Positions 27,082-40,595 of a DNA stretch of 64,000 nt are shown one piece after another (the stretch's first letter is position 1; every line of letters starts with the position of its first letter). Made by a program: the position numbers and the translations under genes. Origin of the DNA: an uncultured Bacilli bacterium. GTDB lineage: Bacteria > Bacillota_I > Bacilli_A > RF39 > UBA660. The DNA lies in the NCBI GenBank assembly GCA_949425635.1, contig CASPWD010000005.1:28552-92551 (forward strand), written 5' to 3'. The notes beneath the pieces were generated by a model. The model ran no database searches, was not told the DNA's origin, and saw nothing but the letters and a program-made list of their open reading frames with translations.

Positions 27082-28032
27082 TTATTTAATTGCTATATCT
27101 CCAGAAGTTGTTTGGATTTTTAAAGTATTTTCTGACATACGATTATTACTATCTATTCTTACATCTCCACTTGTTGTTTTCGTTTCTATATAAGTATCGT
27201 TTATTTTATTTATTATAATTTCACCACTAGTTGAGTTAATAGATGAAGAACCTGTTACTGATAAATTTCTAATTGTAATGTCTCCTGACATTGTTGATAA
27301 ATTTATATTACCTGTATTGCCTATTTTTATTTCTCCACTTGTAGAATTCATTTCTGAGGTACTAGATGAATCAACAATAATATCTCCACTTGTAGTCGTT
27401 ACTTTGACATTTTCTCCTTCTTTAAGATAGACTTCCCCACTCGTTGATTTTATTTCAACATCTTTCGCTTTTGCAATAGTTATATCTCCACTAGTAGTTT
27501 TAACTACTATATTCTTAGTATCTTGAACATTTATTTCTCCACTAACAGTTTCTATATTCATATCACTATTGTATGAGTTTAAAATATTAATATCACTTGA
27601 AGTCGCTTTAATATTTATAAATTTATTAAATGATTCTGGTAAATAAATTATAACTTCTTCATCATAGAAACAAAAGCCAAAGCAAAAACTTGAAAAAGCT
27701 TGTTCTTTAACTTCTAGATTATTATCATTATTTGAAATATTATAACGTTCCTTACGCTCTTCTTTACCATAAATTTCTACTTTTATGTTTTCATCTTCAC
27801 TATATTTAATTGTTACATCTGTTGATGACATGTTTATATTTAGTTTATTTACTTCATTTGTATTATAAGTCTTGCTATGTAATAGTTCTTTTTCATAATC
27901 ACCAAAGGAAAAAATAAATTCTCTTTTAAATAGAACAAATAACATAATACTTAGAAGAATTATGATCAGAAAAATATATAAAATTATTTTAAATATACTA
28001 CTTGTCTTCATTGTCTTTACCATCCTTTGCAT
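27082..28032 (-). CDS. DUF4097-type beta-repeat protein (membrane-anchored)
   Basis: N-terminal TM segment, then about 10 repeats of 'T[ST]SG[DE][IV]x[IV]'. Confidence 0.7.
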   Translation of the reverse strand: MQRMVKTMKTSSIFKIILYIFLIIILLSIMLFVLFKREFIFSFGDYEKELLHSKTYNTNEVNKLNINMSSTDVTIKYSEDENIKVEIYGKEERKERYNISNNDNNLEVKEQAFSSFCFGFCFYDEEVIIYLPESFNKFINIKATSSDINILNSYNSDMNIETVSGEINVQDTKNIVVKTTSGDITIAKAKDVEIKSTSGEVYLKEGENVKVTTTSGDIIVDSSSTSEMNSTSGEIKIGNTGNINLSTMSGDITIRNLSVTGSSSINSTSGEIIINKINDTYIETKTTSGDVRIDSNNRMSENTLKIQTTSGDIAIK

Positions 28033-28738
28033 CTAAAATAATATGAACTATTTTTATTACTAAAGAATAAACAATCCAAAGAATCCAAGTTATGTGCCAA
28101 CCACCTGTTGTAAAACTAACATAAAGATATAGAATAGTAAAAACTAAAGCAATAATATCATCCATATCTTTATATTTAGATTTAACTTTAAAATCTGAAT
28201 CAGATAATTTATGATACTTAGCTTGTTCCTTTAAATAACGTTTTTGATTACCAACAGAAATATAATAATACGTTAATATACATGTAGGAATAGCTGCAAT
28301 AAGCAAGAAAATACTTACCATCAATTCATCACTTATAACATCTAAACTTTCGATAAAAATTATCCAAACAACTGCCACAAAATATAAAAAGATACTTATT
28401 GATACAACTAATGGTTCAAATCTTTTATAGACTCTAGGAACAATTATGTCTTCTTGTTCTTTACTGCTATCTTGTTCTTCTTTTAAAGTTTCCTCTTTTG
28501 TTTTACTTTCTAAAGATTCTATCGTTTCTTTTTTCTCTGGAGTAACTCCTCTTATTAATTCATCCGTTGATATATTATATAAGTTACATAATGGAATTAT
28601 TTTATCAAAGTCAGGATTTGATTCACCTGTTTCCCACTTACTAATCGTTTGTCTTGATACACCAATAATATTAGCTACTTCTTCTTGAGACAAACCAACA
28701 CTTTTTCTTAATTTTAATAGTCTTTCCCCTATATTCAT
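27998..28738 (-). CDS. XRE-family HTH regulator with C-terminal transmembrane domain
   Basis: 'LRKSVGLSQEEVANIIGVSRQTISKWETGESNP' followed by 4 TM segments. Overlaps the DUF4097 gene by 35 nt. Confidence 0.75.
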   Translation of the reverse strand: MNIGERLLKLRKSVGLSQEEVANIIGVSRQTISKWETGESNPDFDKIIPLCNLYNISTDELIRGVTPEKKETIESLESKTKEETLKEEQDSSKEQEDIIVPRVYKRFEPLVVSISIFLYFVAVVWIIFIESLDVISDELMVSIFLLIAAIPTCILTYYYISVGNQKRYLKEQAKYHKLSDSDFKVKSKYKDMDDIIALVFTILYLYVSFTTGGWHITWILWIVYSLVIKIVHIILDAKDGKDNEDK

Positions 28739-29635: not shown

Positions 29636-29661
29636 CAGAAAAAAGAAGGATGTTCCTTCTT
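29636..29661 (-). terminator. Intrinsic terminator ending the small-paralog/Nudix operon
   Basis: Minus-strand AAGAAGGAACATCCTTCTT followed by T6. Overlaps the stop codon. Confidence 0.7.
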
Positions 29662-30208
29662 AATTTAAAATATTTTTTATTAACTCAAATTCTTCTTTAT
29701 GATTAATTATTTCATCATTAGCAATTAATGTAAGAAGTTCTTCTTTTGTAAACCAACGTGCTTCACTTACCTCTTCTACTTGTACTATTATATCTTCAAG
29801 GTCAACGTCGGATTTTATTAAATAGACATAGACAAATTCTTTACTATTTACTCCGTTGCTTAAAAATTCTTCTTTTATTTTATTTAAAAATTGAAATTCA
29901 AATTTTTCTGAGTCTAAACCTAGTTCCTCTGCTAATTCTCTTTTGGCAGAAATAAGTGGTTCTTCTCCTGTAGTAATATGACCACCAACTGTTATGTCCC
30001 ACATATTGGGATATAGTTTTTTATCTGGACATCTTTTTTGTAAAAGTATTTTTGTTTTATCTTCGTTAATTAGTAAAATGTGAATTGAGCTATGCCATAT
30101 TCCATTTTGATGAGCTTTATTTTTACTGATCGTTTCTCCTGTTTTTTCTCCTGTAGTTTCATCATAAATATCAATTATTTCTTCCATTTTTCTACTCTTT
30201 TCTTTCAT
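29660..30208 (-). CDS. Nudix hydrolase
   Basis: Complete Nudix box 'GGHITTGEEPLISAKRELAEELGL'. Overlaps the upstream gene by 4 nt. Confidence 0.75.
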   Translation of the reverse strand: MKEKSRKMEEIIDIYDETTGEKTGETISKNKAHQNGIWHSSIHILLINEDKTKILLQKRCPDKKLYPNMWDITVGGHITTGEEPLISAKRELAEELGLDSEKFEFQFLNKIKEEFLSNGVNSKEFVYVYLIKSDVDLEDIIVQVEEVSEARWFTKEELLTLIANDEIINHKEEFELIKNILN

Positions 30209-30999
30209 TTATTTTTTAGATTTTCTTCATTATATTGGCAAAGAACCGATGGACGATGACCACCTGTTTGAACCATTTCCTCTGTTAAAATTACCTTGTC
30301 AGCAATCGTTCTACGGAAAGCAGAATTTACTAATTTTTTATTTAGTAAAAGTTCATATACTTGTTTTAGTTCGCCTATCGTAAATTTTTCTGGCATTAAG
30401 TTAAAGACTATATCTGTATTATTTACTTTGTTTCGAAGTTCCATAATACCATCGATTATTAATTTAGCATGGTCAAAAGCAAGATTACTTTGAGAAGTCA
30501 CTTCATAATTATATTCATCACTTTTTATGTCGATAGGTATTTTCTTAACATCATAGTTAATCGTTTCTTCTCCATTAGTTAATACTATATGATAAAAGTT
30601 ATTTTCTTCTGTTATACATATATCAAACCAACAAGCATTTTCTTGTAGTTTTTCTACTAATAATGTACGATCAATTAATGCCATGTATGATACTGATATC
30701 ACTCTACCTCTAGGATCTCGATTTACAGCATCATTAACACTTAATTGTTGCATGTAGACATTAGTAAGACCTGTTTCTTTTGTTAAGACCCTATCACTAG
30801 CGATTTTAGAAGTTTCACCTGATTCAATAAATCCACCTGGAAGACACCACTTATCAACAAATGGTTCCTTATCTCTTTTAACAAGTAAAATACTAAAATG
30901 CTTTACAGGAAGAGAACGCGTGTTAGCGTTCTTTCGACTATCAATACCGAATATAAGTAAGTCAGTTGTGTATGCTACATTAAATTTTATTTTTTTCAT
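30205..30999 (-). CDS. NrtR-like regulator (degenerate Nudix domain + C-terminal winged helix)
   Basis: The Nudix box is degenerate: 'PGGFIESGETSKIASDRVLTKETGL', with RE changed to DR and EE to KE. The C-terminus 'LAFDHAKLI...LMPEKFTIGELKQVYELLLNKKL..SAFRRTI...RPSVLCQY' matches the NrtR wHTH pattern. Confidence 0.65.
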   Translation of the reverse strand: MKKIKFNVAYTTDLLIFGIDSRKNANTRSLPVKHFSILLVKRDKEPFVDKWCLPGGFIESGETSKIASDRVLTKETGLTNVYMQQLSVNDAVNRDPRGRVISVSYMALIDRTLLVEKLQENACWFDICITEENNFYHIVLTNGEETINYDVKKIPIDIKSDEYNYEVTSQSNLAFDHAKLIIDGIMELRNKVNNTDIVFNLMPEKFTIGELKQVYELLLNKKLVNSAFRRTIADKVILTEEMVQTGGHRPSVLCQYNEENLKNK

Positions 31000-31319
31000 A
31001 AATACATTCTCCCATTAACATCTAATCTAATCTCTTTAACGCTTACTCTCAAGTTTTGTAAAGCTCTTCTTTTAACAGTAGTCGGAAGCTTTGATGCGTT
31101 AATATCTGTTTCTATATTACAACATGGACATTTAAATGTATAGCAGAAATCTTGTTTAGAATACATAAAATCAGGTGTTTCTTCATCTTTTAAAATAGGT
31201 ATTGCATAAATATCTTCGGCTTCAACTTCTAATACTGCTCCACATCCACCACCATTAGTTCCTATTCCTAGACAATAATGTTTTATTGACCATTTTTTTC
31301 CTTCATTTAATACCTTCAT
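30996..31319 (-). CDS. Small Cys-rich (putative Zn-ribbon) protein, paralog 5 of 5
   Basis: MKVLNEG..W.I..YC...GGGCGAVLEVEAEDIY...YTFKCPCCNIET.I. Has its own AGGGGA RBS. Confidence 0.7.
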   Translation of the reverse strand: MKVLNEGKKWSIKHYCLGIGTNGGGCGAVLEVEAEDIYAIPILKDEETPDFMYSKQDFCYTFKCPCCNIETDINASKLPTTVKRRALQNLRVSVKEIRLDVNGRMYL

Positions 31320-31342
31320 TTTTATTTCCCCTAATTAATTTT

Positions 31343-31669
31343 TTATCTATACCCTAATTTTTTTAAGTACTTTAACTTTGTTCCATTGGCTTGTTCAATA
31401 TTAAGGATCGCTTTTCTAACTTCTATAGGTATTTCACTATCATCAATCAAAGTTTCTTTATTACAGCATGGACATTTAAATGTATAAGAGAAATCATTAT
31501 AATTGGAAAGTTCACTATTTCTCTTATCATTATTAGCTTTCTGTTGATAACTTAAATAGATATCCACAGCTTCTACTTCTAATAAAGCTTCGCAGCCACC
31601 ATCATTATTTTTATTAGCTATGCATTCTTTTTCAATCTTCCAAATAACTGGTTCTTTTACAACTTTCAT
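31343..31669 (-). CDS. Small Cys-rich (putative Zn-ribbon) protein, paralog 4 of 5
   Basis: I place the start at MKVVKEP, by analogy with the paralogs. Motifs 'W.IEKEC', 'GGCEALLEVEAVDIY' and 'YTFKCPCCNKET'. Confidence 0.7.
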   Translation of the reverse strand: MKVVKEPVIWKIEKECIANKNNDGGCEALLEVEAVDIYLSYQQKANNDKRNSELSNYNDFSYTFKCPCCNKETLIDDSEIPIEVRKAILNIEQANGTKLKYLKKLGYR

Positions 31670-31694
31670 TACCATCACCGCCATATATTAACAA

Positions 31695-32024
31695 TTATTT
31701 CTTAGATAAAGTTTTTTTATAATCACTCAATCTTTTTTTAGAAGATTCGGTGGTCTTTAATAACTTTCTCATTCTTTCTGGAATGTCATTTTTATTTATT
31801 AAATTTTCTTTTCCACAACATGGACATTTAAAAGCATAAGATTCATCAATGTAGTAATGTAGATATTCATCTCCTGAATTACTATAAGATTTTTGTTTAA
31901 AATTTAAATATATGTCTTCTAAAGAAACTTCTAATATTGCTCCACATCCAAGTTCACTATAATTATCAAGACATTCTTGTTGAATAGTCCAAGTAATTTT
32001 AATAGGTTCTTTTATAACTTTCAT
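31695..32024 (-). CDS. Small Cys-rich (putative Zn-ribbon) protein, paralog 3 of 5
   Basis: MKVIKEP...WTIQQEC...LGCGAILEVSLEDIY...YAFKCPCCGKEN. AGAGG RBS. Confidence 0.7.
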   Translation of the reverse strand: MKVIKEPIKITWTIQQECLDNYSELGCGAILEVSLEDIYLNFKQKSYSNSGDEYLHYYIDESYAFKCPCCGKENLINKNDIPERMRKLLKTTESSKKRLSDYKKTLSKK

Positions 32025-32043
32025 ACATTTACCTCTTTAATTG

Positions 32044-32376
32044 TTAACTTTTGCTTAACTTTTTTTGATTATTTGATTCCTTTTTTTCTTTTTCTTTATT
32101 CACTATGATTTTTCTTATTTTATCAGGAATATCATTATCTTTTATAGATGTTTCTTTTCCACAACATGGACACCTAAAAACAAATATCTGAACTTGATAA
32201 CGATAGCTTTCTCCATCACGTTCATCATATCCATATTGCATTTTCATCTTTGGATATATATCAGACATATCAACTTCTAATACTGCTCCACAACCATAAT
32301 CTCCAGTACTAACATCTGCTATACATTCTTTTTCAATACTCCAAGAAACTGGAACTGGTTCTTTTATTATTTTCAT
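32044..32376 (-). CDS. Small Cys-rich (putative Zn-ribbon) protein, paralog 2 of 5
   Basis: MKIIKEP...WSIEKEC...YGCGAVLEVDMSDIY...FVFRCPCCGKET. GGAGG RBS. Confidence 0.7.
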   Translation of the reverse strand: MKIIKEPVPVSWSIEKECIADVSTGDYGCGAVLEVDMSDIYPKMKMQYGYDERDGESYRYQVQIFVFRCPCCGKETSIKDNDIPDKIRKIIVNKEKEKKESNNQKKLSKS

Positions 32377-32395
32377 AGTAGGTATACCTCCAAAC

Positions 32396-32662
32396 TTATC
32401 TACTTAAACTTCTTCCTCTATTTCTTGCAAGATTTCTAACTCCTGAAGGAACTAATTTATCAGGAATATCAGTTTCGACTCCACAGCAAGGACATTTGAA
32501 TGTCCAGAAATAATCTGTATCTCCTGTGTAGTCTGTACTAGATGTTTGATAGATGTCTTCTTTTTCTACAGCAAGTAATGCACCACATCCGCCACCACCA
32601 TTTCCTACTCCAGTACAAGTTTGTTCTATTGACCATCCTGGTCCTTCTTTTAGCACTTTCAT
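32396..32662 (-). CDS. Small Cys-rich (putative Zn-ribbon) protein, paralog 1 of 5
   Basis: MKVLKEGPGWSIEQTC...GGGGCGALLAVEKEDIY...WTFKCPCCGVET. GAGGAG RBS. Confidence 0.7.
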   Translation of the reverse strand: MKVLKEGPGWSIEQTCTGVGNGGGGCGALLAVEKEDIYQTSSTDYTGDTDYFWTFKCPCCGVETDIPDKLVPSGVRNLARNRGRSLSR

Positions 32663-32679
32663 TTTATCATCTCCTCACA

Positions 32680-32749
32680 TAGTTACATTTTAATACTAAG
32701 TATCGTGTTTTGTCAATATACTTTGTTACATTTTTGTACAAAGTATATT
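32680..32749 (-). promoter_or_regulatory. Promoter with long palindromic operator upstream of the five-paralog operon
   Basis: On the minus strand, TTGACA (complement of 32711-32716) is followed after 18 nt by TAAAAT. A perfect 12-bp inverted repeat, AATATACTTTGT (32715-26) and ACAAAGTATATT (32738-49), has an 11-nt spacer and abuts/overlaps the -35. Confidence 0.55.
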
Positions 32750-32756
32750 TGATTCA

Positions 32757-32783
32757 TAAAAAAATCCCCTGCTTTTAGGGATT
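32757..32783 (-). terminator. Intrinsic terminator after the modification operon
   Basis: Minus-strand ATCCCTAAAAGCAGGGGAT followed by T7, 3 nt after the methyltransferase stop codon. Confidence 0.7.
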
Positions 32784-32786
32784 TTA

Positions 32787-33476
32787 TTATTTTACAAATT
32801 CGAACAAAACTATCTTATGTTCAATAAGTTCACTCTTAACTCTACTTGCTACCTCTACTCCATATATTTCTAAAAAACATTTTCGTGCTTCGTCTTTGGA
32901 ATCAAATTTAAAATAAGTATTAAATCTTTCCATGACTTTAAATCCGTTATTCAAAATCCAATTATTATAATCTTTAGTACGTGTATCTTTATCGTGGCCT
33001 CTTAAAGTTTCAAATTCACTATCTTCCTCATTTTCAATTAATATAATCTTTCCACCTGGTTTTAAGACTCTCTTTAAATCTTGCAAACATAATTCTCTAT
33101 CTCCTAAATCAGTAATTGTTCCAAGAACCCATGGTGATACAATTAAATCAATTGAATCAGAACATAACATTGTATCTTTTAAATTAGTATTAACAAAAAT
33201 TGAATTTTCTTTTCTAGACTTTATTTTAGCTTTTACTAGTTGATTGAATGATAAGTCTATTCCAATATATTTACTTGAGACATCTTCTAAAATTTGTAAA
33301 AACTTACCTGTACCGCAGCCTGCATCCAATACAATCTTATCTTTTGCTATTTTACTTAAATAATTTACAACTTTACTTTCACCATCTTCCGCTTTACTAA
33401 ATATTTCATAGTAATCATTATTTTCATAGTAGGCACTAGAATCTTTTAAGAGATTTTTTTCTTTCATCTTCCTCAC
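32787..33476 (-). CDS. Class I SAM-dependent methyltransferase
   Basis: Motif I 'VLDAGCGTGKF' and post-I 'GIDLS'. Overlaps the end of the ATP-grasp gene. Confidence 0.75.
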   Translation of the reverse strand: MRKMKEKNLLKDSSAYYENNDYYEIFSKAEDGESKVVNYLSKIAKDKIVLDAGCGTGKFLQILEDVSSKYIGIDLSFNQLVKAKIKSRKENSIFVNTNLKDTMLCSDSIDLIVSPWVLGTITDLGDRELCLQDLKRVLKPGGKIILIENEEDSEFETLRGHDKDTRTKDYNNWILNNGFKVMERFNTYFKFDSKDEARKCFLEIYGVEVASRVKSELIEHKIVLFEFVK

Positions 33477-34500
33477 TTCTTTCTTTTGTTTCTGGATATA
33501 TTAAATCCACCATGTACTTAGCAATATTCTGTGATTTACCAATTGCTGGGCGAAAATGCATATGTACTCCTGGTACTGTATTAATCTCAATAATACGATA
33601 TGTTCCCATATTTTGTTTTTTATCAATGCTATTTGTCATAAAATCAATTCCTACATAAGGAAGTCCAGGAAAGGCTTCAAGGACACGCATTCCAATGTCA
33701 ATAACACTTTCGTGGACCTTGTCAGTATAATCAACACATAGGCCACCCATTGCAACATTTGAATTCGGTCGTAAGTAAACTTTCTTTCCTAATTTAGGAA
33801 TAGTATTCATGCTTATACCATTTTTGTTCATGAATCTTAGCATTTCCTCATCTACTAGAATTTCACACAATGCATTAGTGCGTGGATGCATACGATAATA
33901 ATTTTCTTCAGCTATTAATTCCTTTATTGTCTTCTTACCATCACCGTAAACGTGAGCAGGATCTCTTAATAATACAGCATAATCTCTATTCTTAGTTATA
34001 AATACTCTAAACTCTTTTGATGCGAAATATTCTTCGATTAGAACTTTAGCTTTTTCACCTTTACTTCTTATTATCTTTGCTAACGCTTCTATAACATCTT
34101 CTTTAGTTCTAAGATCTGTATAAACATCGTAGCCATGTGAACCAAAAACTGGTTTTAAAACAACTGGACGGTTTAGAATTTCAAATGCCTTAAGAATATC
34201 TGATTTATAATTTGCACTAAAAACTGCACCAGTTGGAACACTGATTCCTGCATTAAACAATATTTCTTTAGTGATTCCCTTATCACCAGCAAGAATAGAA
34301 ACATTGTATGGCATTATTGAAGAATCACGATCATATATTAATTCATCATGTCCTTGATAAGATGCTTTTATTAATTCAAGTCCCTCATCTAAAACGTCAA
34401 CTTTAATTCCACGACGTAACATTTCATAAATTAAAATTTTTTGATTAGAATGTAAATTTTTATAAATATTTTCCATATCACCATCTACTTTCGCCATCAT
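33436..34500 (-). CDS. ATP-grasp ligase (GshF C-terminal / cyanophycin-synthetase-type)
   Basis: 'DKGITKEILFNAGISVPTG', 'VVLKPVFGSHGYDV', 'HVYGDGKKTIKELI', 'LRPNSNVAMGG..VDYTD.VH' and 'IIEINTVPGVHMHFRP' resemble the amino-acid-ligating ATP-grasp of GshF/CphA. An alternative start (ATG, complement 34474-34476) lies 1 nt after the stop of the upstream gene. Confidence 0.7.
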   Translation of the reverse strand: MMAKVDGDMENIYKNLHSNQKILIYEMLRRGIKVDVLDEGLELIKASYQGHDELIYDRDSSIMPYNVSILAGDKGITKEILFNAGISVPTGAVFSANYKSDILKAFEILNRPVVLKPVFGSHGYDVYTDLRTKEDVIEALAKIIRSKGEKAKVLIEEYFASKEFRVFITKNRDYAVLLRDPAHVYGDGKKTIKELIAEENYYRMHPRTNALCEILVDEEMLRFMNKNGISMNTIPKLGKKVYLRPNSNVAMGGLCVDYTDKVHESVIDIGMRVLEAFPGLPYVGIDFMTNSIDKKQNMGTYRIIEINTVPGVHMHFRPAIGKSQNIAKYMVDLIYPETKERSEEDERKKSLKRF

Positions 34501-35086
34501 GACTTTCAGATGAGTCGTATCCCCAACTTGAATAGGATGGAGAAACCTTCTTTTTTGGAGTTAATGTAAGTTTTTTTACTTCATTAATCTTTTCCTCAAA
34601 TTCATCACTTTCTTTCTCAATTTCACTAATTATACGGTCTTCCCTAATTTGTCTTAGTTTTTCTATTTGCTGTTTTCTCCTTTTTAAAGATTTGCTATAT
34701 TTTTCTCCTCTTCCTTGTAATTGTTCTAAAACAGGTATTGTTATTTCTAGTTGTTCGATTAAAGAATCAATATCTTCAAAGTTACTATACTTAGCTGGAA
34801 TACTTGAATCATCTAGCGTTCTATCTATTGTTGGTTTTGATGTAGTTTGTTTCGGTTGGCTACTTCTTATAATAGGAGCACACGATTCACTTGCTTCCCT
34901 ACTTTCAGAGGATACAAAACCTCTTACACTTCTTGGAGTTTGTGTAACACGACTTTCACTAGATTCATGAGATTCACTAGACCATGATGAAAATGGGGTG
35001 TAACTTCTACTTTCACTAGAACACCTACTTTCACTTGAATATCCGTAAGAATATCCTCTACTTTCTCCACTACGACTTTCACTCAT
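34478..35086 (-). CDS. SES[RH]-repeat protein with central coiled coil (unknown function)
   Basis: A strong AAGGAG RBS lies 10 nt upstream, inside the end of the previous gene. The N-terminal ~80 aa carry 8 copies of (S/G)ES(R/H/C), interspersed with GYSYGYS and SSWS. The middle is a K/E/R-rich helical segment. The C-terminus ends 'SSWGYDSSESHDGESRW'. Confidence 0.65.
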   Translation of the reverse strand: MSESRSGESRGYSYGYSSESRCSSESRSYTPFSSWSSESHESSESRVTQTPRSVRGFVSSESREASESCAPIIRSSQPKQTTSKPTIDRTLDDSSIPAKYSNFEDIDSLIEQLEITIPVLEQLQGRGEKYSKSLKRRKQQIEKLRQIREDRIISEIEKESDEFEEKINEVKKLTLTPKKKVSPSYSSWGYDSSESHDGESRW

Positions 35087-35092
35087 TTTAAC

Positions 35093-35929
35093 TCATCTCC
35101 TTAATATTATTACGCCATCACTTTTTTCTTCTTCTGGTTCTAGCGCACTTCTAAATCTTTTTGCTTCATAATTTTTAAAAACTTTATCTACTAAACTTAA
35201 ATTATCGATTTCACTTCTTGGATTACTATTTCCAATATCATAAAGGTAGGCCATATAAATTTTCTTAACTCTATCTAGAAATTTATTCATCAAATCCCTA
35301 TACTTTATAAGTCCATCTTTACCATACATCATTCCAATATAATCAGATATATTAGATAAAAACATATAATCAAAATATTCATCTAACTCTAAATTTTCTA
35401 AACTACAAGTAATATGTCTAATTTTTAATCCACTCAACTTATCTTTAACTAAATTATAACTATCTTCATTTAAATATAAATTCTGCCATACTTTACTATC
35501 TGGATTAAAATACTTACGATTAAAATAATGAGAATTTTTTAAGCTTCTTCCATCTTTATTAAACTCTTGTAATTTATCTAACCAAAACATTCTACTTTCA
35601 ACTGGCAAATCCAAACTGGAAATAATATCATAATCAAAGCTTATCTTTGTATCATAAAGAAGGAAATTAACAAAATCATTAAAATCTAACTTTTTTAATG
35701 CTGATAATTTCAAATCCATGTACTTCTCAGTAAGTGGATTAATATCAAACGTTGTAACATCAAGTCCACCTCTAGCTACTATATTTAAAATATGATCAGT
35801 TGAACCAGTAACTGTTATTACTTTTGTACCAGTTAAATCTAAATCATCCATATATCCTGCGATATTCTCCGTTGTAAAAGGATAAATACTATCAAATCTT
35901 TCCATAACATTTACCACTTCCTTTTGCAC
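35093..35929 (-). CDS. DUF3419 / BtaA-like SAM-dependent (3-amino-3-carboxypropyl-transferase-like) protein
   Basis: 'TKVITVTGSTDHILNIVARGGLDVTTFDINPLTEKYMDLKLSALKKLDFNDFVNFL' matches the BtaA-family pattern as I remember it (xVLxIxSxGxNxL....V.AVD.NP.Q..LLELK.AA...L....F..F). Recognised from memory only. Confidence 0.5.
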   Translation of the reverse strand: MQKEVVNVMERFDSIYPFTTENIAGYMDDLDLTGTKVITVTGSTDHILNIVARGGLDVTTFDINPLTEKYMDLKLSALKKLDFNDFVNFLLYDTKISFDYDIISSLDLPVESRMFWLDKLQEFNKDGRSLKNSHYFNRKYFNPDSKVWQNLYLNEDSYNLVKDKLSGLKIRHITCSLENLELDEYFDYMFLSNISDYIGMMYGKDGLIKYRDLMNKFLDRVKKIYMAYLYDIGNSNPRSEIDNLSLVDKVFKNYEAKRFRSALEPEEEKSDGVIILRR

Positions 35930-37352
35930 ATAAGAACTTAGTTAACTTTTTATCTTTTAATACTTCGTCAAGTGGATTATCTCGTAAAGATATATCAGAT
36001 ATACAGGTCTTATCTACTTCATGTACCCAAGGACATGGACTTACTTGACCAAAATTGTTTATATATAAAAACTTATCTCCAGCTGGACATCTATGAATCG
36101 TAATTGGTTGATGTCCAAAGTTATAATTCACTACAATTTTTCCTTTATATTTACTTCTAAGATCATCGAGTTCACTTATTAAATCTTCTGTATTTCTTTT
36201 CTTAAATAAACTTTTATCTTGTCCTTCAACAGGTTCCATAATAGAAAATATTATTTCATCAGCTGCTAAGCTACTAGAATCTCTTATTAATCCTTCCAAA
36301 TTTCTCTCATTATTAGCATGTATTACAGCTCCGACTCTTACCTTATTTGTTGAATTCTTTAGTAACTCAATTCCCCTAATTGTTCTTAGATAAGTATCTT
36401 TACCTCTAACTGCTTCATGTTCTAACCTATTTCCATCTAAACTAACATGAATCATTTTCAGTTTAAGTTCATTAAGTAATCTTACCTTTTCTTCAGTAAG
36501 AAGTGATGCATTAGTAGAAATATCTGTTATTAATTTACTACTTGCATATCTTAAAATATCTATAATATCTCTTATAATAAAAGGTTCTCCACCAGTTATC
36601 TTTAGATGTCTAAAATCATGTGTACAAAGCTCATCAATTATATGAAAACATTCTTCTGTAGTTAGTTCATTCGTAATCTTACTATTCTTATGGCAAGAAA
36701 ATATACAATAAGAACAACCATAATTACATTTATGAGTTATCTCCCAAATTGCCTTACCTCCACCATCATTAGGTAACGTAAATTTACAATCCATTCCATT
36801 AATAAAGCTTTGTATTAATTCCATATCTACGTTTGTATCATTATTAACAACTAAAACATTATTGGCTTCGAGTCTACTCCTATCAAATTCTTGTAATTTG
36901 AATCTTTGTAATATTTCCTCTTTTGATAGATCGCTATTCCCAAGTCTTTCTAATCTCTTATTAACACTAGTATCAACATAGATTATTTTCTCAAATAAAC
37001 TTTCCAAATTATCATTAAATATTAATGCCCAATCAACTAAAATTGTTTTATTATCAAACTCTTCAATATACATCATAAAATATCTATAAAGAACTTCCTT
37101 ATATCTATTCATATAATCTTCATTTGAATAAATAAACTTATTTAATATTCTAGAATCAACTTCATTATATAAATTTAATTCTGGTATAGCTCTCTTTAGC
37201 TCATTAACATAACTTTCATTCTTAAATAGACTTCTTCTAAATTCATCGACATCTATATAAATAAAATCTCTATTATCAAGCATTATCTTTCTAGCAATTG
37301 TTGTTTTACCAGCAGACATCCCACCAGTTATTCCTATTAATCTATTCTTCAT
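35892..37352 (-). CDS. Fusion protein: dephospho-CoA-kinase-like P-loop NTPase + radical SAM/SPASM domain
   Basis: N-terminal 'LIGITGGMSAGKTT' (CoaE-like Walker A) spans about 190 aa. Then 'CNYGCSYC' (CxxxCxxC) and 'ITGGEPF'. The C-terminus 'HRCPAGDKFLYINNFGQVSPCPW...C...C....C' is SPASM/twitch-like. I place the start at MKNRLIG. Confidence 0.75.
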   Translation of the reverse strand: MKNRLIGITGGMSAGKTTIARKIMLDNRDFIYIDVDEFRRSLFKNESYVNELKRAIPELNLYNEVDSRILNKFIYSNEDYMNRYKEVLYRYFMMYIEEFDNKTILVDWALIFNDNLESLFEKIIYVDTSVNKRLERLGNSDLSKEEILQRFKLQEFDRSRLEANNVLVVNNDTNVDMELIQSFINGMDCKFTLPNDGGGKAIWEITHKCNYGCSYCIFSCHKNSKITNELTTEECFHIIDELCTHDFRHLKITGGEPFIIRDIIDILRYASSKLITDISTNASLLTEEKVRLLNELKLKMIHVSLDGNRLEHEAVRGKDTYLRTIRGIELLKNSTNKVRVGAVIHANNERNLEGLIRDSSSLAADEIIFSIMEPVEGQDKSLFKKRNTEDLISELDDLRSKYKGKIVVNYNFGHQPITIHRCPAGDKFLYINNFGQVSPCPWVHEVDKTCISDISLRDNPLDEVLKDKKLTKFLCAKGSGKCYGKI

Positions 37353-38688
37353 ACCAACACATCCCATACTTTATTGGAACAAAAGCAGCTACTTTCATTT
37401 CCTTATCTTGATTGTTATATTTCATCCAATCTACATTATCTGTAATAATTTCGTACCCCTCTTTTTTTAAATTTTTAAGTAATAATTCTATTTCATGTTC
37501 TAAGTCCTTATTTTCTATATTAGGTTTATTTCCATGAATATACTGTGTCTTATTAATTACATTTCCGTTCTCTTCATAAACTGGAGTTCCATATCTATAA
37601 GCTAAGTAATGTAAACGAAGTTCGTGAGGTTTAATACTTTTAAGTAACTTTCTTGTTTTCTTTAAATCTTCTACCTTTGTTCCAGGATAATCTAAAATAA
37701 AACTAGTTCTTACTCTATAACCCATATCTTTTACTTCTTTAATTATCTCTTCTACTCTTTTAACATCCATCTCTTTGTTCATCATTTTTAATATCTTTGG
37801 ACTACCAGATTCTAAACCAAAATGAATCCATCGAAATCCAACTTTATACATTTCTTCTAACATTTCTGCATCATAACACTTAATGCTACACAAAGCTCCA
37901 AATAAACATTTTATCTTTCTTTTTCTAATAAGATTACAAATTCTCATCATACGTTTTTTATCAACAGTTGCATTATCATCTAAGAATATTATTTGCTTCG
38001 CTTTATATTTTTTTATCAATATTTCTATTTCATCTACAACTTCTACAGGTGACTTACCACACCACTTTCTAAAATAGTAAGGTGTTGTACAAAACTTACA
38101 TCCACCAATACATCCTCTAGAAGTGATTATCGTTCTTGTCTCCATATACTTAGAAATATCCACGAATTCTCTATCTATCATTGGAAGTTTATTGTAATTA
38201 TTTGGCATAAAGACTTGTTTAGTAATGACAACTTTCTCATTATCTTTATAAACAATATTAGGAATTTTATTTAACTTGTCCTTATCAAATACATTTTCTA
38301 TAACATCATTAATTAATTCTTCTGCAATTCCCTTTATAACTACATCAACACCATTTTCTAAAAACTTACTATAAGAGTATGTTGATGTTTTACCAACCAT
38401 AATGACTTTACTTTCTCTATTTAGATTCTTGATTATTTCAAATATATTATTTATTGCTTCACTTGTATGTAGTGGTAACTGATAGTCATAAACAAATACA
38501 ATAACATTTTTACTTTCTAGATATTCATTTATATTATTTTCCATTCTATTAACATCCATATCGATAACTCTTACATTATTAAATCTTTCTTTAACTACTG
38601 TAGCTATTTGTAGAACATCAAGTGGTTCAGCTAAGATTGTTTCATTTGTAAAAGGTTTATTAGGTGGGTTTACTACTAAAATATTCAT
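37342..38688 (-). CDS. B12-binding-domain radical SAM enzyme (class B-like)
   Basis: N-terminal Rossmann-like region of about 170 aa, then 'CIGGCKFC' and a TIM-barrel region. 448 aa. Confidence 0.75.
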   Translation of the reverse strand: MNILVVNPPNKPFTNETILAEPLDVLQIATVVKERFNNVRVIDMDVNRMENNINEYLESKNVIVFVYDYQLPLHTSEAINNIFEIIKNLNRESKVIMVGKTSTYSYSKFLENGVDVVIKGIAEELINDVIENVFDKDKLNKIPNIVYKDNEKVVITKQVFMPNNYNKLPMIDREFVDISKYMETRTIITSRGCIGGCKFCTTPYYFRKWCGKSPVEVVDEIEILIKKYKAKQIIFLDDNATVDKKRMMRICNLIRKRKIKCLFGALCSIKCYDAEMLEEMYKVGFRWIHFGLESGSPKILKMMNKEMDVKRVEEIIKEVKDMGYRVRTSFILDYPGTKVEDLKKTRKLLKSIKPHELRLHYLAYRYGTPVYEENGNVINKTQYIHGNKPNIENKDLEHEIELLLKNLKKEGYEIITDNVDWMKYNNQDKEMKVAAFVPIKYGMCWYEE

Positions 38689-38803
38689 ATTTATCTCTCC
38701 TCTTATTTACATTATAGTAATAACATACAAATAAATAAAATGAATATTTCTCATATACAACATTACTCGTAGTTATATAAAATCGGAGACTGGTTTCTAA
38801 CAT

Positions 38804-38828
38804 AAAAAAAGGACTATTAATTAGTCCT
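38804..38828 (-). terminator. Intrinsic terminator separating gene 38834-39547 from the radical SAM operon
   Basis: Minus-strand AGGACTAATTAATAGTCCT followed by T7. Confidence 0.8.
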
Positions 38829-38833
38829 ATAAA

Positions 38834-39547
38834 TTATTTAGTTAATTTTTTACTTTGAACACTTTCTAAAGAAAAATCTTTGTTTTCAAGAACTGTACAA
38901 GAAAAACCATATTTCTTAGCTATTTTATTTACTGACTCTGCAGTTACATTTCTTTTATCACCTTGATTAATTAATAAAATCAATTTATCTTCAAGTCTAA
39001 TAAGACCGCGGAATAGTCTTCCATCTACTTGGAATTCTGCTTCTTTGTCTTCGTCTAAATAGTTTAAATCATCACTTTCGACATCTGTTGTGTATCCTAA
39101 ACTTAGACTTCCTTCAAGAAATGGGAAATAATCAAAGCCTCTATTATTAGTTCTTGATATGCTATCAGCAAAAGCATCATCTACTACATATTCTTCTCTA
39201 GCGAACCATAATTCAGGAATGGTTTTATCGTCTTCATGTTTTTCTGATATTGGAGCAAAACTTACTTCATGATAAACAAAACCTTTATTATCTAAATAAG
39301 ATCTTATATCATTTGCTATGACTTCTCCACCACGCATTAACATTAATAAAATATCATTTTCTTCACTATATAAAAATGTGTCAAATTGTCTACTTACTAT
39401 TTTTTCTCCACCAAGATTAAAGTTACTTAAAACATTAGTAAAAATAATAATATCATTATCAGTTTTTATATTATCTAAAGCGGTTTTTAATTCACTTGGT
39501 AAAGATTGGATTGCCCATACATCTAAATTGCTATTCATACTAAACAC
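38834..39547 (-). CDS. Hypothetical acidic protein
   Basis: 237-aa ORF behind an AGGAGAG RBS. No motif recognised. Confidence 0.4.
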   Translation of the reverse strand: MFSMNSNLDVWAIQSLPSELKTALDNIKTDNDIIIFTNVLSNFNLGGEKIVSRQFDTFLYSEENDILLMLMRGGEVIANDIRSYLDNKGFVYHEVSFAPISEKHEDDKTIPELWFAREEYVVDDAFADSISRTNNRGFDYFPFLEGSLSLGYTTDVESDDLNYLDEDKEAEFQVDGRLFRGLIRLEDKLILLINQGDKRNVTAESVNKIAKKYGFSCTVLENKDFSLESVQSKKLTK

Positions 39548-39662
39548 TCTCCTATGTTCAATTTTTATGTGGTTTTAATATCTTAGCATATTATTTAAAA
39601 ACTAGCAAGTAAGGTGACAAAATATAACATATTGTTATAGATAAAAATGTAAATTATTCTAA

Positions 39663-40445
39663 TTAGAATAATCCCCATTCGGCAAATTTTTCGAAGCCTC
39701 CAATACTTTTAATATATTCTTTTGCTTCAGAAACTATGGAACTATAAGGCAAATTATCAACAAATTCATCGCCAATTGCACAACTTATTTTTACAACTTC
39801 GCCCGTTTCTTGAGCTTTTTTGAAAGCGTAAATATTTATAGAAACGTCAGCTTTGGATAAATCTTTGCCATGTAACCCGCCTCCTGTAATGCTGTCTGCC
39901 ATATCAGATCCTAATTTTCTGTTCGTTGCTCCTGAGTCGACATCTGTTCCTCCAGTCCATTCTCCTAAAGGGTTTATAACTGCATCAGGATAAATTGTTT
40001 TTAAATCATCTGTCTTGGCATTACTTTGACAAATTATAAGTTTATCATTATCTAAAATATATTTACCATCAAATGGATACTTTGAATAAATTTCTCTAGC
40101 AATTTTAGATAACTCTTTTTGCTCTTTCGTTAAAGGCACTCCTTTAAATATTCCATTATCTCCACATCTAATTTGATTTGTTTGGTTAGCTGCTAGGTGA
40201 ATATCTTGTTTTACAACATTTAAATCTAACTTAAGTGGACCAGCTATACGATTTACAATTTTTTGTACTTCATTTTCTGTAAAGTTTTCACTTGTTTCAG
40301 CAATAATATGACAATTTCCATGGCCTATAAGTACTTCTACAGCTATTTTACAATTGTCATTTTTAGAATAAGCAAGATCAACTAGAGCTCCAGCTATTCT
40401 ATCAGCCACCTTATCAGGATGGCTTGGGTTTACTTTCTCAATCAT
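39663..40445 (-). CDS. Compact S-adenosylmethionine synthetase (MetK)-like protein
   Basis: I place the start at MIEKVNP behind a GGAGG RBS. 'SHPDKVADRIAGALVD' aligns with MetK 'GHPDKIADQISDAVLD', 'CGDNGIFKG' with 'GDQGLMFGY', and 'NPLGEW..GG...DSGATNRKLGSD....ITGGGLHGKDLSKADVS' with 'NPTGRFVIGGP.GD.GLTGRKIIVDTYGG...HGGGAFSGKDPSKVDRS'. It is only about 260 aa, versus about 385-400 aa for canonical MetK. Confidence 0.65.
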   Translation of the reverse strand: MIEKVNPSHPDKVADRIAGALVDLAYSKNDNCKIAVEVLIGHGNCHIIAETSENFTENEVQKIVNRIAGPLKLDLNVVKQDIHLAANQTNQIRCGDNGIFKGVPLTKEQKELSKIAREIYSKYPFDGKYILDNDKLIICQSNAKTDDLKTIYPDAVINPLGEWTGGTDVDSGATNRKLGSDMADSITGGGLHGKDLSKADVSINIYAFKKAQETGEVVKISCAIGDEFVDNLPYSSIVSEAKEYIKSIGGFEKFAEWGLF

Positions 40446-40469
40446 TTTAAAATCTCCTCCTAACACATC

Positions 40470-40595
40470 AAATAAAAACACCCAAGATAACTTTCTTGAG
40501 TGTAAAAGCTATCTTATCGTACTAGCATTACCACCTAATTTAATAGGTTGGTGCGACTTCTTAGGGCTAGTCCCTCCATCGCTCTTTATAAGATG
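40470..40595 (-). promoter_or_regulatory. SAM-I (S-box) riboswitch with terminator
   Basis: Minus-strand read is CTTATAAAGAGCGATGGAGGGACTAGCCCTAAGAAGTCGCACCAACC...GGTGGTAATGCTAGTACGATAAG, showing the S-box blocks GAGGGA, GCCC, AAGAA, CAACC and GGTG.TAA. It is followed by the terminator CACTCAAGAAAGTTATCTTGGGTG + T5. Confidence 0.85.

What the first reader, a model, noticed from the sequence alone, without database searches (positions are those of the whole stretch)
30996..32662. Array of five tandem, diverged paralogs of a small CPCC-containing protein with a hypervariable central insert
Five consecutive genes (88-113 aa, spacers of 19-25 nt, each with its own RBS) share the pattern MK[VI][ILV][KN]E-x(3-6)-W-x-I-x(2,3)-C-x(5-10)-GC[GE]A-x-L-x-V-x(3)-DIY-[15-25 variable, Y/D/S/E-rich residues]-[YFW]-x-F-[KR]-CPCC-x(2)-E-[TN]-x(1,2)-I-x(4,5)-[IVL]-P. 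Each is followed by a variable basic tail. Four or five invariant Cys residues (C, GC, CPCC) suggest a Zn-ribbon-like knuckle or a set of modification sites. Conserved termini around a hypervariable core, plus multi-copy tandem organisation next to a radical SAM/SPASM operon, fit diversified RiPP-type precursors. They would equally fit a diversified binding or immunity protein family. I cannot assign the family to anything characterised.
Basis: partly seen in the sequence, partly recalled or inferred. Interest (0 to 1): 0.8.

Follow-up and report, generated by a model that had tools for sequence, protein, structure and literature searches.

The report
Nudix-linked zinc-ribbon protein gene array
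Five tandem genes encode folded zinc-ribbon proteins of a large, unnamed family that across distant bacteria sits beside, or is fused to, ADP-ribose-type Nudix and adenine-salvage enzymes; they are not peptide-antibiotic precursors, and their biochemical role is still unknown.

Summary
Five paralogous genes (88-110 aa) lie head to tail on the minus strand at 32662..30996.

- **Zinc site.** Only four Cys are conserved across the family (C-x9-C ... C-P-x-C). The middle Cys of "CPCC" is not. This is a Cys4 zinc-ribbon signature.
- **Fold.** AlphaFold2 gives confident small beta-sheet folds with a basic C-terminal helix. The "hypervariable insert" is an ordered, lengthened beta-hairpin.
- **Insert variation.** The insert differs between paralogs but is conserved among orthologs. 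dN/dS is mostly below 1.
- **Transcription.** The array has its own promoter, flanked by two conserved 20-nt boxes, after the terminator of the radical-SAM operon. It is co-transcribed with an NrtR-like regulator and a Nudix hydrolase.
- **Family.** It has about 1,200 clusters at 50% identity, no Pfam or NCBIfam model and no solved-structure match.
- **Gene linkage.** In 40 of 51 assessable genome loci from several phyla, a Nudix gene is adjacent or fused. In candidate-phyla-radiation (CPR) bacteria the family forms a shuffled trio with Apt and a small Nudix.

The RiPP reading is not supported. The most likely role is an accessory or regulatory zinc protein of an ADP-ribose/purine-salvage module, expanded here into paralogs with different binding arms. 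The mechanism is inferred, not shown.

The parts
32396..32662 (-). c1, 88 aa. The ancestral-type Zn-ribbon copy: it keeps the CTGxGNGGGGC loop and a short hairpin.
   Evidence: ORF. It is 88-94% identical to first-position orthologues, where flanking genes are 65-85% identical. The AF2 model has pLDDT 89. Family-wide orthologues are 55-68% identical.
32044..32376 (-). c2, 110 aa. Lineage-specific paralog with a long beta-hairpin and a Lys-rich helix.
   Evidence: The AF2 model has pLDDT 87.7, hairpin strands 40-51 and 56-68, and helix 85-109.
31695..32024 (-). c3, 109 aa. The fastest-diverging paralog.
   Evidence: It is 45-51% identical to its best counterparts in relatives.
31343..31669 (-). 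c4, 108 aa. An alternative upstream ATG at 31684 would give 113 aa.
   Evidence: Orthologues begin MK/MQ-V and end ..LRKLGYR.
30996..31319 (-). c5, 107 aa. Its stop codon overlaps the start of the NrtR-like gene.
   Evidence: Orthologues end ..GRMYL.
32687..32716 (-). Sigma-70-like promoter of the array: TTGACA, 18 nt, TAAAAT.
   Evidence: 11 of 12 matches. It is conserved in about 17 related loci.
32720..32746 (-). Operator-like box 1 (ACTTTGTACAAAAATGTAAC core), just upstream of the -35 hexamer.
   Evidence: repeat D6. The box travels with the NrtR-like gene even where the Zn-ribbon genes are replaced (L139, L142). It is absent where the Zn-ribbon gene has no NrtR neighbour (L018, L036).
32677..32703 (-). 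Operator-like box 2 (ACTTAGTATTAAAATGTAAC core), overlapping the -10 hexamer.
32766..32781 (-). Intrinsic terminator of the upstream methyltransferase/radical-SAM operon.
30205..30999 (-). NrtR-like regulator: a Nudix domain with a degenerate Nudix box, plus an NrtR winged-helix domain.
   Evidence: Pfam NUDIX scores 36 bits and NrtR_WHD 54 bits, both above their cut-offs. The NCBIfam NrtR model scores 111 bits, below its equivalog cut-off of 400. The Nudix box reads GGFIESGETSKIASDRVLTKETG, so RE has become RV and EE has become KE (sequence).
29660..30208 (-). Nudix hydrolase with an intact Nudix box, YfcD/IDI-like. It is the last gene of the operon.
   Evidence: Pfam NUDIX E=1.4e-19. The box is GHITTGEEPLISAKRELAEELG. 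Its start overlaps the stop of the NrtR-like gene.
29643..29661 (-). Terminator-like hairpin at the end of the operon.

Best explanation
The five genes are tandem paralogs of an undescribed family of small Cys4 zinc-ribbon proteins. Each has an acidic beta-sheet core, a protruding beta-hairpin and a basic C-terminal helix.

This family is the conserved operon partner of NrtR/NadM-type (ADP-ribose-type) Nudix proteins. In CPR bacteria it also partners adenine phosphoribosyltransferase and an ITPase-like NTPase.

In this window the five copies form the promoter-proximal part of a seven-gene operon: c1 to c5, an NrtR-like repressor, then an active Nudix hydrolase. The operon is driven by one sigma-70-type promoter bracketed by two conserved 20-nt boxes. 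These boxes are most likely the operators of the NrtR-like protein.

Inferred mechanism:
1. The NrtR-like repressor holds the operon off until its nucleotide ligand (ADP-ribose or a relative) accumulates.
2. The zinc-ribbon proteins are then made together with the Nudix proteins.
3. They act as accessory, regulatory or adaptor subunits of this nucleotide-salvage and clean-up module. They bind their partner through the conserved core, and a second target through the variable hairpin and the basic helix.
4. c1 keeps the ancestral role. c2 to c5 are older lineage-specific duplicates that have diverged in the hairpin arm, the Gly-rich loop and the tail.

Shown here: the family, the fold prediction, the Cys4 pattern, the operon structure, the gene linkage, the fusions and the evolutionary rates.
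Inferred only: zinc binding, physical contact with Nudix or Apt, the identity of the ligand, and what the hairpin and helix bind.
For: Fold and zinc site:
- Across 71 and 253 sequences, only C16, C26, C57 and C60 are invariant.
- AF2 models have pLDDT 89 (c1) and 88 (c2). Each has five strands plus a helix, and the insert forms an ordered long hairpin.
- Sub-threshold Pfam hits are all generic Zn-ribbon families.

Linkage to Nudix:
- Of 55 species-representative genome loci, 37 have a Nudix gene within 1 kb downstream. Three are true fusions, in both domain orders (L037, L044, L048). Two more have a Nudix gene at 1-2.5 kb, and 4 have no room to judge.
- Many gene pairs overlap by 1-19 nt.
- Further fusions were found in the exhaustive search: ZnR+NUDIX (P0173, P0200), ZnR+Apt (P0217) and ZnR+DUF84 NTPase (P0175).
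- CPR loci keep the trio Apt/ZnR/Nudix in shuffled orders next to a divergent TrmB-like gene.
- Apt scores above the NCBIfam equivalog cut-offs.

Operon and regulation:
- A terminator, a promoter and two boxes lie upstream of c1. These are the only two exact sites in the 64-kb window.
- The same promoter-and-box architecture is conserved in about 17 loci whose proteins are only 55-65% identical.
- The boxes co-occur with the NrtR-like gene, not with the Zn-ribbon gene.
- The NrtR-like protein has a degenerate Nudix box, as expected of a sensor.

Paralog history:
- c1 is 88-94% identical to its orthologues. The values are 45-70% for c2 to c5 and 65-85% for flanking genes.
- Whole-gene dN/dS is 0.07-0.45.
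- Copy number is 4 to 6 in relatives.
- Tandem copies also recur in other phyla: 17 of 55 loci.

Charge: every copy has a core charge of -4 to -6 and a tail charge of +5 to +8.
Against: - No experiment or structure shows contact between the Zn-ribbon protein and a Nudix protein. The tools return no interface information.
- Nine of 51 assessable genome loci, and 13 of 14 viral loci including jumbo-phage-sized contigs, carry the gene without any Nudix nearby. It also occurs alone in ICE-like and phage-like gene runs. The protein can therefore work without that partner.
- In L139 and L142 the same NrtR-controlled slot holds an unrelated Cys-free protein family. This argues against an obligate partnership with the NrtR-like protein.
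- The boxes do not fit the published NrtR core GT-N7-AC (PMC2330246).
- No NAD-synthesis gene is part of the operon.
- The reason for five copies is unexplained.
Confidence: 0.5

Rival explanations
1. ADP-ribose-gated battery of diversified binders used in phage/host conflict. The NrtR-like sensor would derepress the operon when NAD-cleaving immunity or phage ADP-ribosyltransferases release ADP-ribose. The Zn-ribbon paralogs would then bind different foreign or host proteins, as inhibitors, decoys or immunity proteins, through their variable hairpins. Phages would carry homologues as mimics or counter-measures.
For: - The family occurs in phages, jumbo-phage-sized contigs and ICE-like contexts.
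- The family has weak but consistent hits to phrog_2834.
- Copy number varies from 4 to 6, and the non-first copies evolve fast.
- The same regulated slot can carry a different tandem small-protein family.
- dN/dS is raised in the hairpin of three paralog types, at 0.4-0.8.
- Nudix-HTH sensors are reported to regulate ADPr-related conflict systems (PMC9503650).
Against: - There is no hit to PADLOC defence models.
- The locus lies in conserved chromosomal synteny, not in a defence island.
- In CPR bacteria the partners are housekeeping-type salvage enzymes: Apt, ITPase and a small Nudix.
- dN/dS does not robustly exceed 1.
- c1 is extremely conserved.
Confidence: 0.17
2. Small nucleic-acid-binding regulators. 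The Zn ribbon plus basic helix would bind DNA or RNA. It would form, with a nucleotide-binding enzyme fold (Nudix, PRTase or NTPase) as sensor, a split or fused regulator analogous to NrtR, PurR or PyrR.
For: - Every copy has a basic C-terminal helix with charge +5 to +8.
- The family is fused to Nudix, PRTase and NTPase domains, the same domain logic as known enzyme-derived regulators.
- Small phage early-region proteins are often regulators.
- Faint fold resemblance to Cren7/Sso7d-like DNA binders, which is not significant.
Against: - The globular core is acidic.
- A dedicated regulator is already present at nearly every locus: the NrtR winged-helix domain or a divergent TrmB-like gene.
- The conserved boxes track the NrtR-like gene, not the Zn-ribbon gene.
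- The partner Nudix proteins in CPR bacteria keep an intact catalytic box.
Confidence: 0.18
3. RiPP-type precursor peptides matured by the neighbouring radical SAM/SPASM, ATP-grasp and methyltransferase enzymes.
For: - The array lies next to an operon with a B12-rSAM, an rSAM-SPASM, an ATP-grasp and a methyltransferase. That adjacency is kept in the closest relatives.
- The proteins are Cys-rich, multi-copy and have a variable middle.
Against: - A terminator and a separate promoter lie between the two units.
- The rSAM linkage is absent in most of the 55 genome loci. It is limited to one clade, plus L028 in a different arrangement.
- The proteins are predicted to be well folded.
- The Cys specific to CPCC is not conserved, while the four conserved Cys form a Zn-ribbon pattern.
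- The family is common in CPR bacteria and phages that have no maturase nearby.
- The rSAM operon holds its own repeat-rich 202-aa candidate substrate.
Confidence: 0.04

Closest known systems
NrtR regulons (Nudix-related transcriptional regulators of NAD/ADP-ribose metabolism; Rodionov et al. 2008, PMC2330246)
   Same: - The regulator has the NrtR architecture: a Nudix-like domain with a degenerate catalytic box plus the NrtR winged-helix domain.
- It is encoded in the operon it presumably controls.
- Paired operator-like boxes overlap the promoter.
   Different: - The boxes do not show the published 21-bp palindrome with a GT-N7-AC core.
- The NCBIfam NrtR equivalog score is far below its cut-off.
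- The regulated genes are not NAD-synthesis genes. They are five Zn-ribbon proteins and a YfcD/IDI-like Nudix.
- No Zn-ribbon partner is described in the NrtR papers found.
Zn-ribbon modules attached to Nudix enzymes, e.g. the C4 zinc motif of NADH pyrophosphatase NudC (Pfam zf-NADH-PPase, Nudix_N_2). This comparison is recalled from knowledge of Pfam and NudC, not tested beyond hmmscan.
   Same: A Cys4 zinc ribbon is physically joined to a Nudix fold in some family members (fusions).
   Different: - No hmmscan hit to those Pfam families at E<=1 for the five window copies or for 71 family members, and none at E<=0.01 for the fusion proteins.
- Here the ribbon is usually a separate polypeptide of about 90 aa, with five strands and a basic helix.
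- Fusions occur in both domain orders.
Zinc-domain regulatory subunits of nucleotide enzymes, e.g. PyrI of aspartate transcarbamoylase. This is an analogy from textbook knowledge.
   Same: A small Cys4 zinc protein is encoded next to, and works through contact with, a nucleotide-metabolism enzyme. This is the working model proposed here.
   Different: No sequence or fold similarity was detected. The interaction is not demonstrated here.
phrog_2834 and uncharacterised phage proteins (Sphingobium phage Lacusarx gp LAV_00162, Pseudomonas phage PN09, Escherichia phage Mangalitsa)
   Same: - Weak but consistent profile hits, E 3e-5 to 2e-3, over the GC..CPxC region.
- Foldseek matches with E 1e-5 to 1e-3 and TM 0.5-0.7.
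- tblastn gives 45% identity to the Lacusarx gene.
   Different: - The phage proteins have no known function.
- They sit in runs of small early genes without a Nudix neighbour.
- Many are shorter, at 58-68 aa.
LysW-type amino-group carrier proteins
   Same: A small Zn-ribbon protein with an ATP-grasp gene nearby. There are faint Zn_ribbon_LysW and PDB LysW hits.
   Different: - The hits are not significant.
- LysW carries an acidic C-terminal tail used for ligation, whereas these tails are basic.
- The ATP-grasp gene belongs to a different transcription unit.

Membership tests
Cys4 zinc-ribbon proteins | Two Cys pairs (knuckles) on beta-hairpins, conserved across homologues | tested here: met
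   C16, C26, C57 and C60 are invariant in 71 sequences. The C-x9-C and C-P-x-C pattern is found in 253 of 267 sequences. The strands flank both pairs in the AF2 models.
Cys4 zinc-ribbon proteins | Stoichiometric Zn(II) bound by the four Cys | not testable with these tools
   This needs ICP-MS or a PAR assay on purified protein.
RiPP precursors of radical SAM/SPASM maturases | Conserved genetic linkage (co-transcription) with the maturase across taxa | tested here: not met
   A terminator and the array's own promoter separate the units. rSAM homologues lie within 8 kb only in L008-L015, L085-L087 and L028, out of all the loci examined.
RiPP precursors of radical SAM/SPASM maturases | Leader/core organisation, with the modified residues conserved and the peptide not an autonomous fold | tested here: not met
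   Confident globular models. Both termini and the core are conserved. The CPCC-specific Cys is variable.
RiPP precursors of radical SAM/SPASM maturases | Post-translational cross-links or leader cleavage | not testable with these tools
   This needs mass spectrometry.
NrtR regulon | Regulator with an N-terminal Nudix-like domain and a C-terminal NrtR winged helix | tested here: met
   Pfam NUDIX scores 36.1 bits against a cut-off of 21.1. NrtR_WHD scores 54 bits against a cut-off of 27.
NrtR regulon | 21-bp palindromic operator with a GT-N7-AC core upstream of the regulated genes (PMC2330246) | tested here: inconclusive
   Two conserved boxes, ACTTwGTAnnAAAATGTAAC, sit at the promoter. Their symmetry is ACTTTGT-N11-ACAAAGT, not GT-N7-AC.
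NrtR regulon | ADP-ribose releases the repressor from DNA | not testable with these tools
   This needs EMSA with and without ADP-ribose.
NrtR regulon | Regulated genes belong to NAD synthesis or salvage | tested here: not met
   The operon holds only the Zn-ribbon genes, the regulator and a YfcD/IDI-like Nudix. There is no other exact box in the window.
phrog_2834 (phage family of unknown function) | Significant match to the PHROG profile | tested here: inconclusive
   E values of 3e-5 to 0.2 for 10 family members, always over profile positions of about 20-75.
Known anti-phage defence proteins (PADLOC) | Match to a defence-system model | tested here: not met
   No hit for c1 to c5. Only a generic Nudix-domain hit to PDC-S07 for the two Nudix proteins.
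LysW-type carrier proteins | Zn ribbon plus an acidic C-terminal ligation tail, co-operonic with a LysX-type ATP-grasp | tested here: not met
   The tails carry charge +5 to +8. The ATP-grasp is in a separate unit. The LysW hits are not significant.

The most novel reading that the evidence does not exclude
The array is an ADP-ribose-gated set of diversified zinc-ribbon binders. An NrtR-like sensor would detect ADP-ribose released during NAD-targeting conflict and switch on five proteins. Their different beta-hairpin arms would each neutralise or mark a different phage or host target. Phages would carry stand-alone homologues as counter-measures. This would be a new class of inducible, small-protein immune or anti-immune effectors tied to NAD/ADP-ribose signalling.
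Probability: 0.1. Interest if true: 0.85.

Novelty: new variant of a known kind. Interest (0 to 1): 0.55.

Why it matters
The family is large: at least 1,196 clusters at 50% identity. It spans Bacilli, CPR/Patescibacteria, Proteobacteria-binned MAGs and phages. It has no name, no domain model and no structural relative.

Despite that, it has one of the cleanest gene-neighbourhood signals one can ask for. A Nudix gene is adjacent or fused in about 80% of assessable genome loci, in both fusion orders, and the family forms a shuffled trio with Apt. That makes an unknown component of ADP-ribose and adenine-nucleotide salvage directly testable. This pathway is central to the reduced-genome, host-dependent bacteria in which the family is commonest.

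The result also extends the NrtR family to a regulon with no NAD-synthesis gene and with a new, highly conserved operator pair.

Finally, it removes a false RiPP lead. The five-copy array offers natural variants of one scaffold for working out what the hairpin arm recognises.

Tried and rejected
**Searches for a known identity.**
- Pfam, NCBIfam and PADLOC scans of all five copies gave no family.
- A Pfam scan of 71 members gave only sub-threshold generic Zn-ribbon hits.
- A PDB sequence-profile search gave only motif-level TFIIE and LysW matches.
- Foldseek of both models against the PDB gave nothing with E<0.1.
- tblastn of c1 against phage records, and of P0111 against plasmids, found nothing. 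P0111 hit only Sphingobium phage Lacusarx, in an uninformative run of hypothetical genes.
- Rfam found nothing in 28.5-35.5 kb.

**Literature.** No paper linked NrtR or Nudix to such a Zn-ribbon partner. The nrtX/nrtY genes of the 2008 paper could not be identified from the text.

**Regulon search.** I scanned metagenome contigs with the operator pattern. Most of the 119 hits were single chance sites. The scan yielded only about 10 further Zn-ribbon/NrtR loci and the two alternative-cargo loci.

**Alternative cargo.** I tested whether the Cys-free 135-aa cargo is a degenerate relative of the Zn-ribbon family. hhalign gave probability 0.1%, so this was rejected. A homologue search found only the protein itself.

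**Smaller ideas rejected.**
- Release-factor genes near some loci are ordinary prfA/prfB genes at varying distances.
- A deaminase-like PCxxC zinc site was rejected: the motif order and the fold do not fit.
- A ComF-like ZnF-PRTase was rejected: the PRTase scores as Apt, not ComF.


Full report
**1. What is in the sequence**

The coordinates hold five consecutive ORFs on the minus strand:

| Copy | Coordinates | Length |
|---|---|---|
| c1 | 32662..32396 | 88 aa |
| c2 | 32376..32044 | 110 aa |
| c3 | 32024..31695 | 109 aa |
| c4 | 31669..31343 | 108 aa |
| c5 | 31319..30996 | 107 aa |

- A longer 113-aa reading of c4 starts at an ATG that homologues do not use.
- The spacers are 19-25 nt, each with a purine-rich RBS.
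Pairwise BLASTP E-values are 1e-8 to 1e-28 at 33-48% identity.
- The conserved cores also appear as five-fold DNA repeats with a period of about 344-352 nt.

**2. Which features are general to the family**

- A profile search found 452 relatives. All are unnamed and none has a Pfam domain.
- An exhaustive HMMER search of 1.84 billion representatives found 1,196 clusters at E<=1e-3, and 560 at E<=1e-10.
- Across 71 diverse members the invariant residues include only four Cys: C16, C26, C57 and C60 in c1 numbering.
- The middle Cys of "CPCC" is Cys in only 105 of 253 members. It is Glu in 59, and Val, Gln, Ile or another residue in the rest.
- The pattern C-x9-C ... C-P-x-C is that of a Cys4 zinc ribbon. 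It is not a set of modification sites.
- The usual distance between DIY and the second Cys pair is 17-18 residues. The 25-29-residue versions are confined to the Bacilli paralog group to which c2 to c5 belong.

**3. Structure**

- AlphaFold2 with the family alignment gives c1 a mean pLDDT of 89 and pTM of 0.74. The model has five strands and a C-terminal helix at residues 73-87.
- c2 gives pLDDT 87.7. The "insert" is simply a longer, ordered hairpin (strands 40-51 and 56-68), followed by a 25-residue helix.
- Neither model has a significant match among solved structures. The profile also finds nothing real in PDB sequences.
- The only structural relatives are uncharacterised phage proteins in BFVD, with E values of 1e-5 to 1e-3. 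This agrees with weak, consistent hits to phrog_2834, a family of unknown function.
- Every window copy has an acidic core (net charge -4 to -6) and a basic tail (+5 to +8).

**4. Transcription unit**

- Upstream of c1 lies the terminator of the methyltransferase gene, at 32781-32766.
- Next comes a near-consensus promoter, TTGACA-18-TAAAAT, at 32716-32687.
- Two 20-nt boxes, ACTTwGTAnnAAAATGTAAC, lie just upstream of the -35 hexamer (32744-32725) and over the -10 hexamer (32701-32682). They are the only exact copies in the 64-kb window.
- The c5 stop overlaps the start of an NrtR-like gene at 30999..30205. That protein hits Pfam NUDIX and NrtR_WHD, both above their cut-offs.
- Its Nudix box reads GGFIESGETSKIASDRVLTKETG. 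Two of the catalytic Glu residues are lost (RE to RV, EE to KE), as expected of a sensor rather than an enzyme.
- That gene in turn overlaps a Nudix hydrolase with an intact box, at 30208..29660. A terminator-like hairpin follows at 29661-29643.
- The unit is therefore promoter and boxes, c1 to c5, the NrtR-like gene, then the Nudix gene.

**5. Comparative context**

*Closest relatives.* In uncultured Bacilli MAGs the whole neighbourhood is syntenic, including the radical-SAM operon. These relatives carry 4, 5 or 6 Zn-ribbon genes.

*More distant loci.* The radical-SAM genes disappear but the Nudix link stays. The 55 species-representative genome loci come from Bacilli, Erysipelotrichaceae, Muribaculaceae-binned contigs, Falkow-, Uhr-, Magasanik- and Saccharibacteria, Gammaproteobacteria-binned MAGs and Vicinamibacterales, among others. 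They break down as follows:

| Nudix context | Loci |
|---|---|
| Nudix gene within 1 kb downstream | 37 |
| True fusion | 3 |
| Nudix gene at 1-2.5 kb | 2 |
| No room to judge | 4 |
| None nearby | 9 |

*Fusions.* The fusions occur in both orders: Nudix then ZnR in L037 and L044, and ZnR then Nudix in L048. The exhaustive search adds ZnR+NUDIX (P0173, P0200), ZnR+Apt (P0217) and ZnR+DUF84 NTPase (P0175).

*Partner Nudix type.* It is of the NrtR/NadM (ADP-ribose pyrophosphatase-like) type. It has an intact catalytic box in the small CPR versions.

*CPR operons.* Apt, ZnR and Nudix occur in shuffled orders beside a divergent TrmB-like gene. One locus has ZnR, Apt and an ITPase. Apt reaches the NCBIfam equivalog cut-offs.

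*Viral contigs.* By contrast, only 1 of 14 viral loci has a Nudix gene nearby. Some copies sit alone in ICE-like or phage-like gene runs.

**6. The operator boxes belong to the NrtR-like protein**

- The promoter with both boxes is almost invariant in about 17 loci whose Zn-ribbon proteins are only 55-65% identical.
- It is absent from loci that have the Zn-ribbon gene but no NrtR-like gene (L018, L036).
- It is present in two metagenome contigs (L139, L142) where the slot before the NrtR-like gene holds tandem copies of an unrelated, Cys-free 135-aa family instead.
- That other family shows no homology to the Zn-ribbon family and no relatives elsewhere.
- The boxes differ from the published NrtR core GT-N7-AC (PMC2330246). 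This is therefore a divergent NrtR-family regulon.

**7. Evolution of the paralogs**

Compared with four related genomes, amino-acid identities are:

| Gene | Identity to relatives |
|---|---|
| Flanking genes | 65-85% |
| c1 | 88-94% |
| c4 | 66-70% |
| c5 | 59-65% |
| c2 | 51-66% |
| c3 | 45-51% |

- Each paralog has its own orthologous group, with a conserved tail and hairpin.
- Nei-Gojobori dN/dS among three closer genomes is 0.07-0.45 for whole genes and 0.04-0.37 for the cores.
- For the hairpin it is 0.0-0.8, with one value of 1.37 from only 21 codons.
- The region is thus paralog-specific and somewhat relaxed. It is not demonstrably under diversifying selection.
- Tandem duplication of the family also recurs in other phyla: 17 of 55 loci have 2 to 6 copies.

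**8. Interpretation**

*RiPP reading.* It fails on linkage, transcription, fold and Cys conservation. The radical-SAM operon also contains its own Ser/Glu-rich repeat protein (34478-35086), which is a more natural substrate.

*Best-supported reading.* These are accessory zinc-ribbon proteins of an ADP-ribose/adenine-nucleotide salvage and clean-up module. They are made together with the Nudix proteins, under an NrtR-like repressor.

- The conserved core probably contacts the Nudix or Apt partner. Fusions in both orders and translational coupling point that way.
- The hairpin and basic helix probably contact a second target.

*Evidence against an obligate partnership.* Phage and ICE copies occur without any Nudix gene, and L139 and L142 show cargo replacement.

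*Open rivals.* Two remain open: a conflict-related binder battery gated by ADP-ribose, and small nucleic-acid-binding regulators.

*Not shown.* Zinc binding, partner binding, the ligand of the repressor and the reason for five copies are all inferred.

**9. Novelty and scores**

- Nothing in Pfam, NCBIfam, PADLOC, the PDB or the searchable literature describes this family.
- I class it as a new variant of a known kind: a divergent NrtR/Nudix operon with a previously undescribed zinc-ribbon partner family.
- Interest is moderate, at 0.55. This reflects a large, clean, testable unknown in NAD/ADP-ribose and purine salvage of reduced-genome bacteria, with no demonstrated new mechanism.

Noticed in passing
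window 32787-40481 (minus strand): The upstream operon runs: MetK-N-like fragment, 237-aa ORF with no Pfam hit, B12-binding radical SAM, CoaE-kinase+radical SAM+SPASM fusion, DUF3419, 202-aa Ser/Glu-rich protein with repeated SSESR/SSESH motifs (34478-35086), cyanophycin-synthetase/GshAB-like ATP-grasp, class-I methyltransferase. The block is conserved in the closest relatives. The repeat protein looks like the substrate of a protein- or peptide-modification pathway.
   Followed up: partly
L139 2937-3790; L142 826-1640: These contigs have the same promoter, the same two operator boxes and the same NrtR-like and Nudix genes. However, the slot is filled by two tandem paralogs of an unrelated Cys-free family of about 135 aa, with no Pfam hit and no homologues found. 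The regulated cargo position is therefore exchangeable.
   Followed up: yes
L021, L023-L026 (Erysipelotrichaceae-type MAG contigs): The NrtR-like regulator and the YfcD/IDI-like Nudix hydrolase are fused into one ORF of 427-436 aa directly after a single Zn-ribbon gene.
   Followed up: no
L008 6650-6964 (copy 5 of a six-copy array): This copy has Trp in place of the first Cys of CPCC, and DIC in place of DIY. It is possibly decaying or neofunctionalised.
   Followed up: no
L030, L037, L040, L046, L057, L207 (CPR contigs): Adenine phosphoribosyltransferase, the Zn-ribbon protein and a small NadM-type Nudix occur in shuffled orders beside a divergent TrmB-family regulator. In L040 the third gene is an ITPase/XTPase instead.
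   Followed up: partly
window 27082-28738 (minus strand): An HTH_3 (Xre-type) protein is followed by a DUF4097 'toastrack' protein. The pair is conserved downstream of the Cu-oxidase_4 (PgeF/YfiH-type) gene in all close relatives.
   Followed up: no
L027, L029 (contigs binned as Muribaculaceae): Their promoter, boxes and Zn-ribbon-NrtR genes are nearly identical in architecture to the Bacilli loci. This suggests either horizontal transfer or mis-binned contigs.
   Followed up: no
L098, L145, L173, L182, L185, L193: A single operator-like site lies upstream of a 402-aa membrane protein, next to WhiA and a 203-aa Nudix-like gene. It is probably a chance match.
   Followed up: partly
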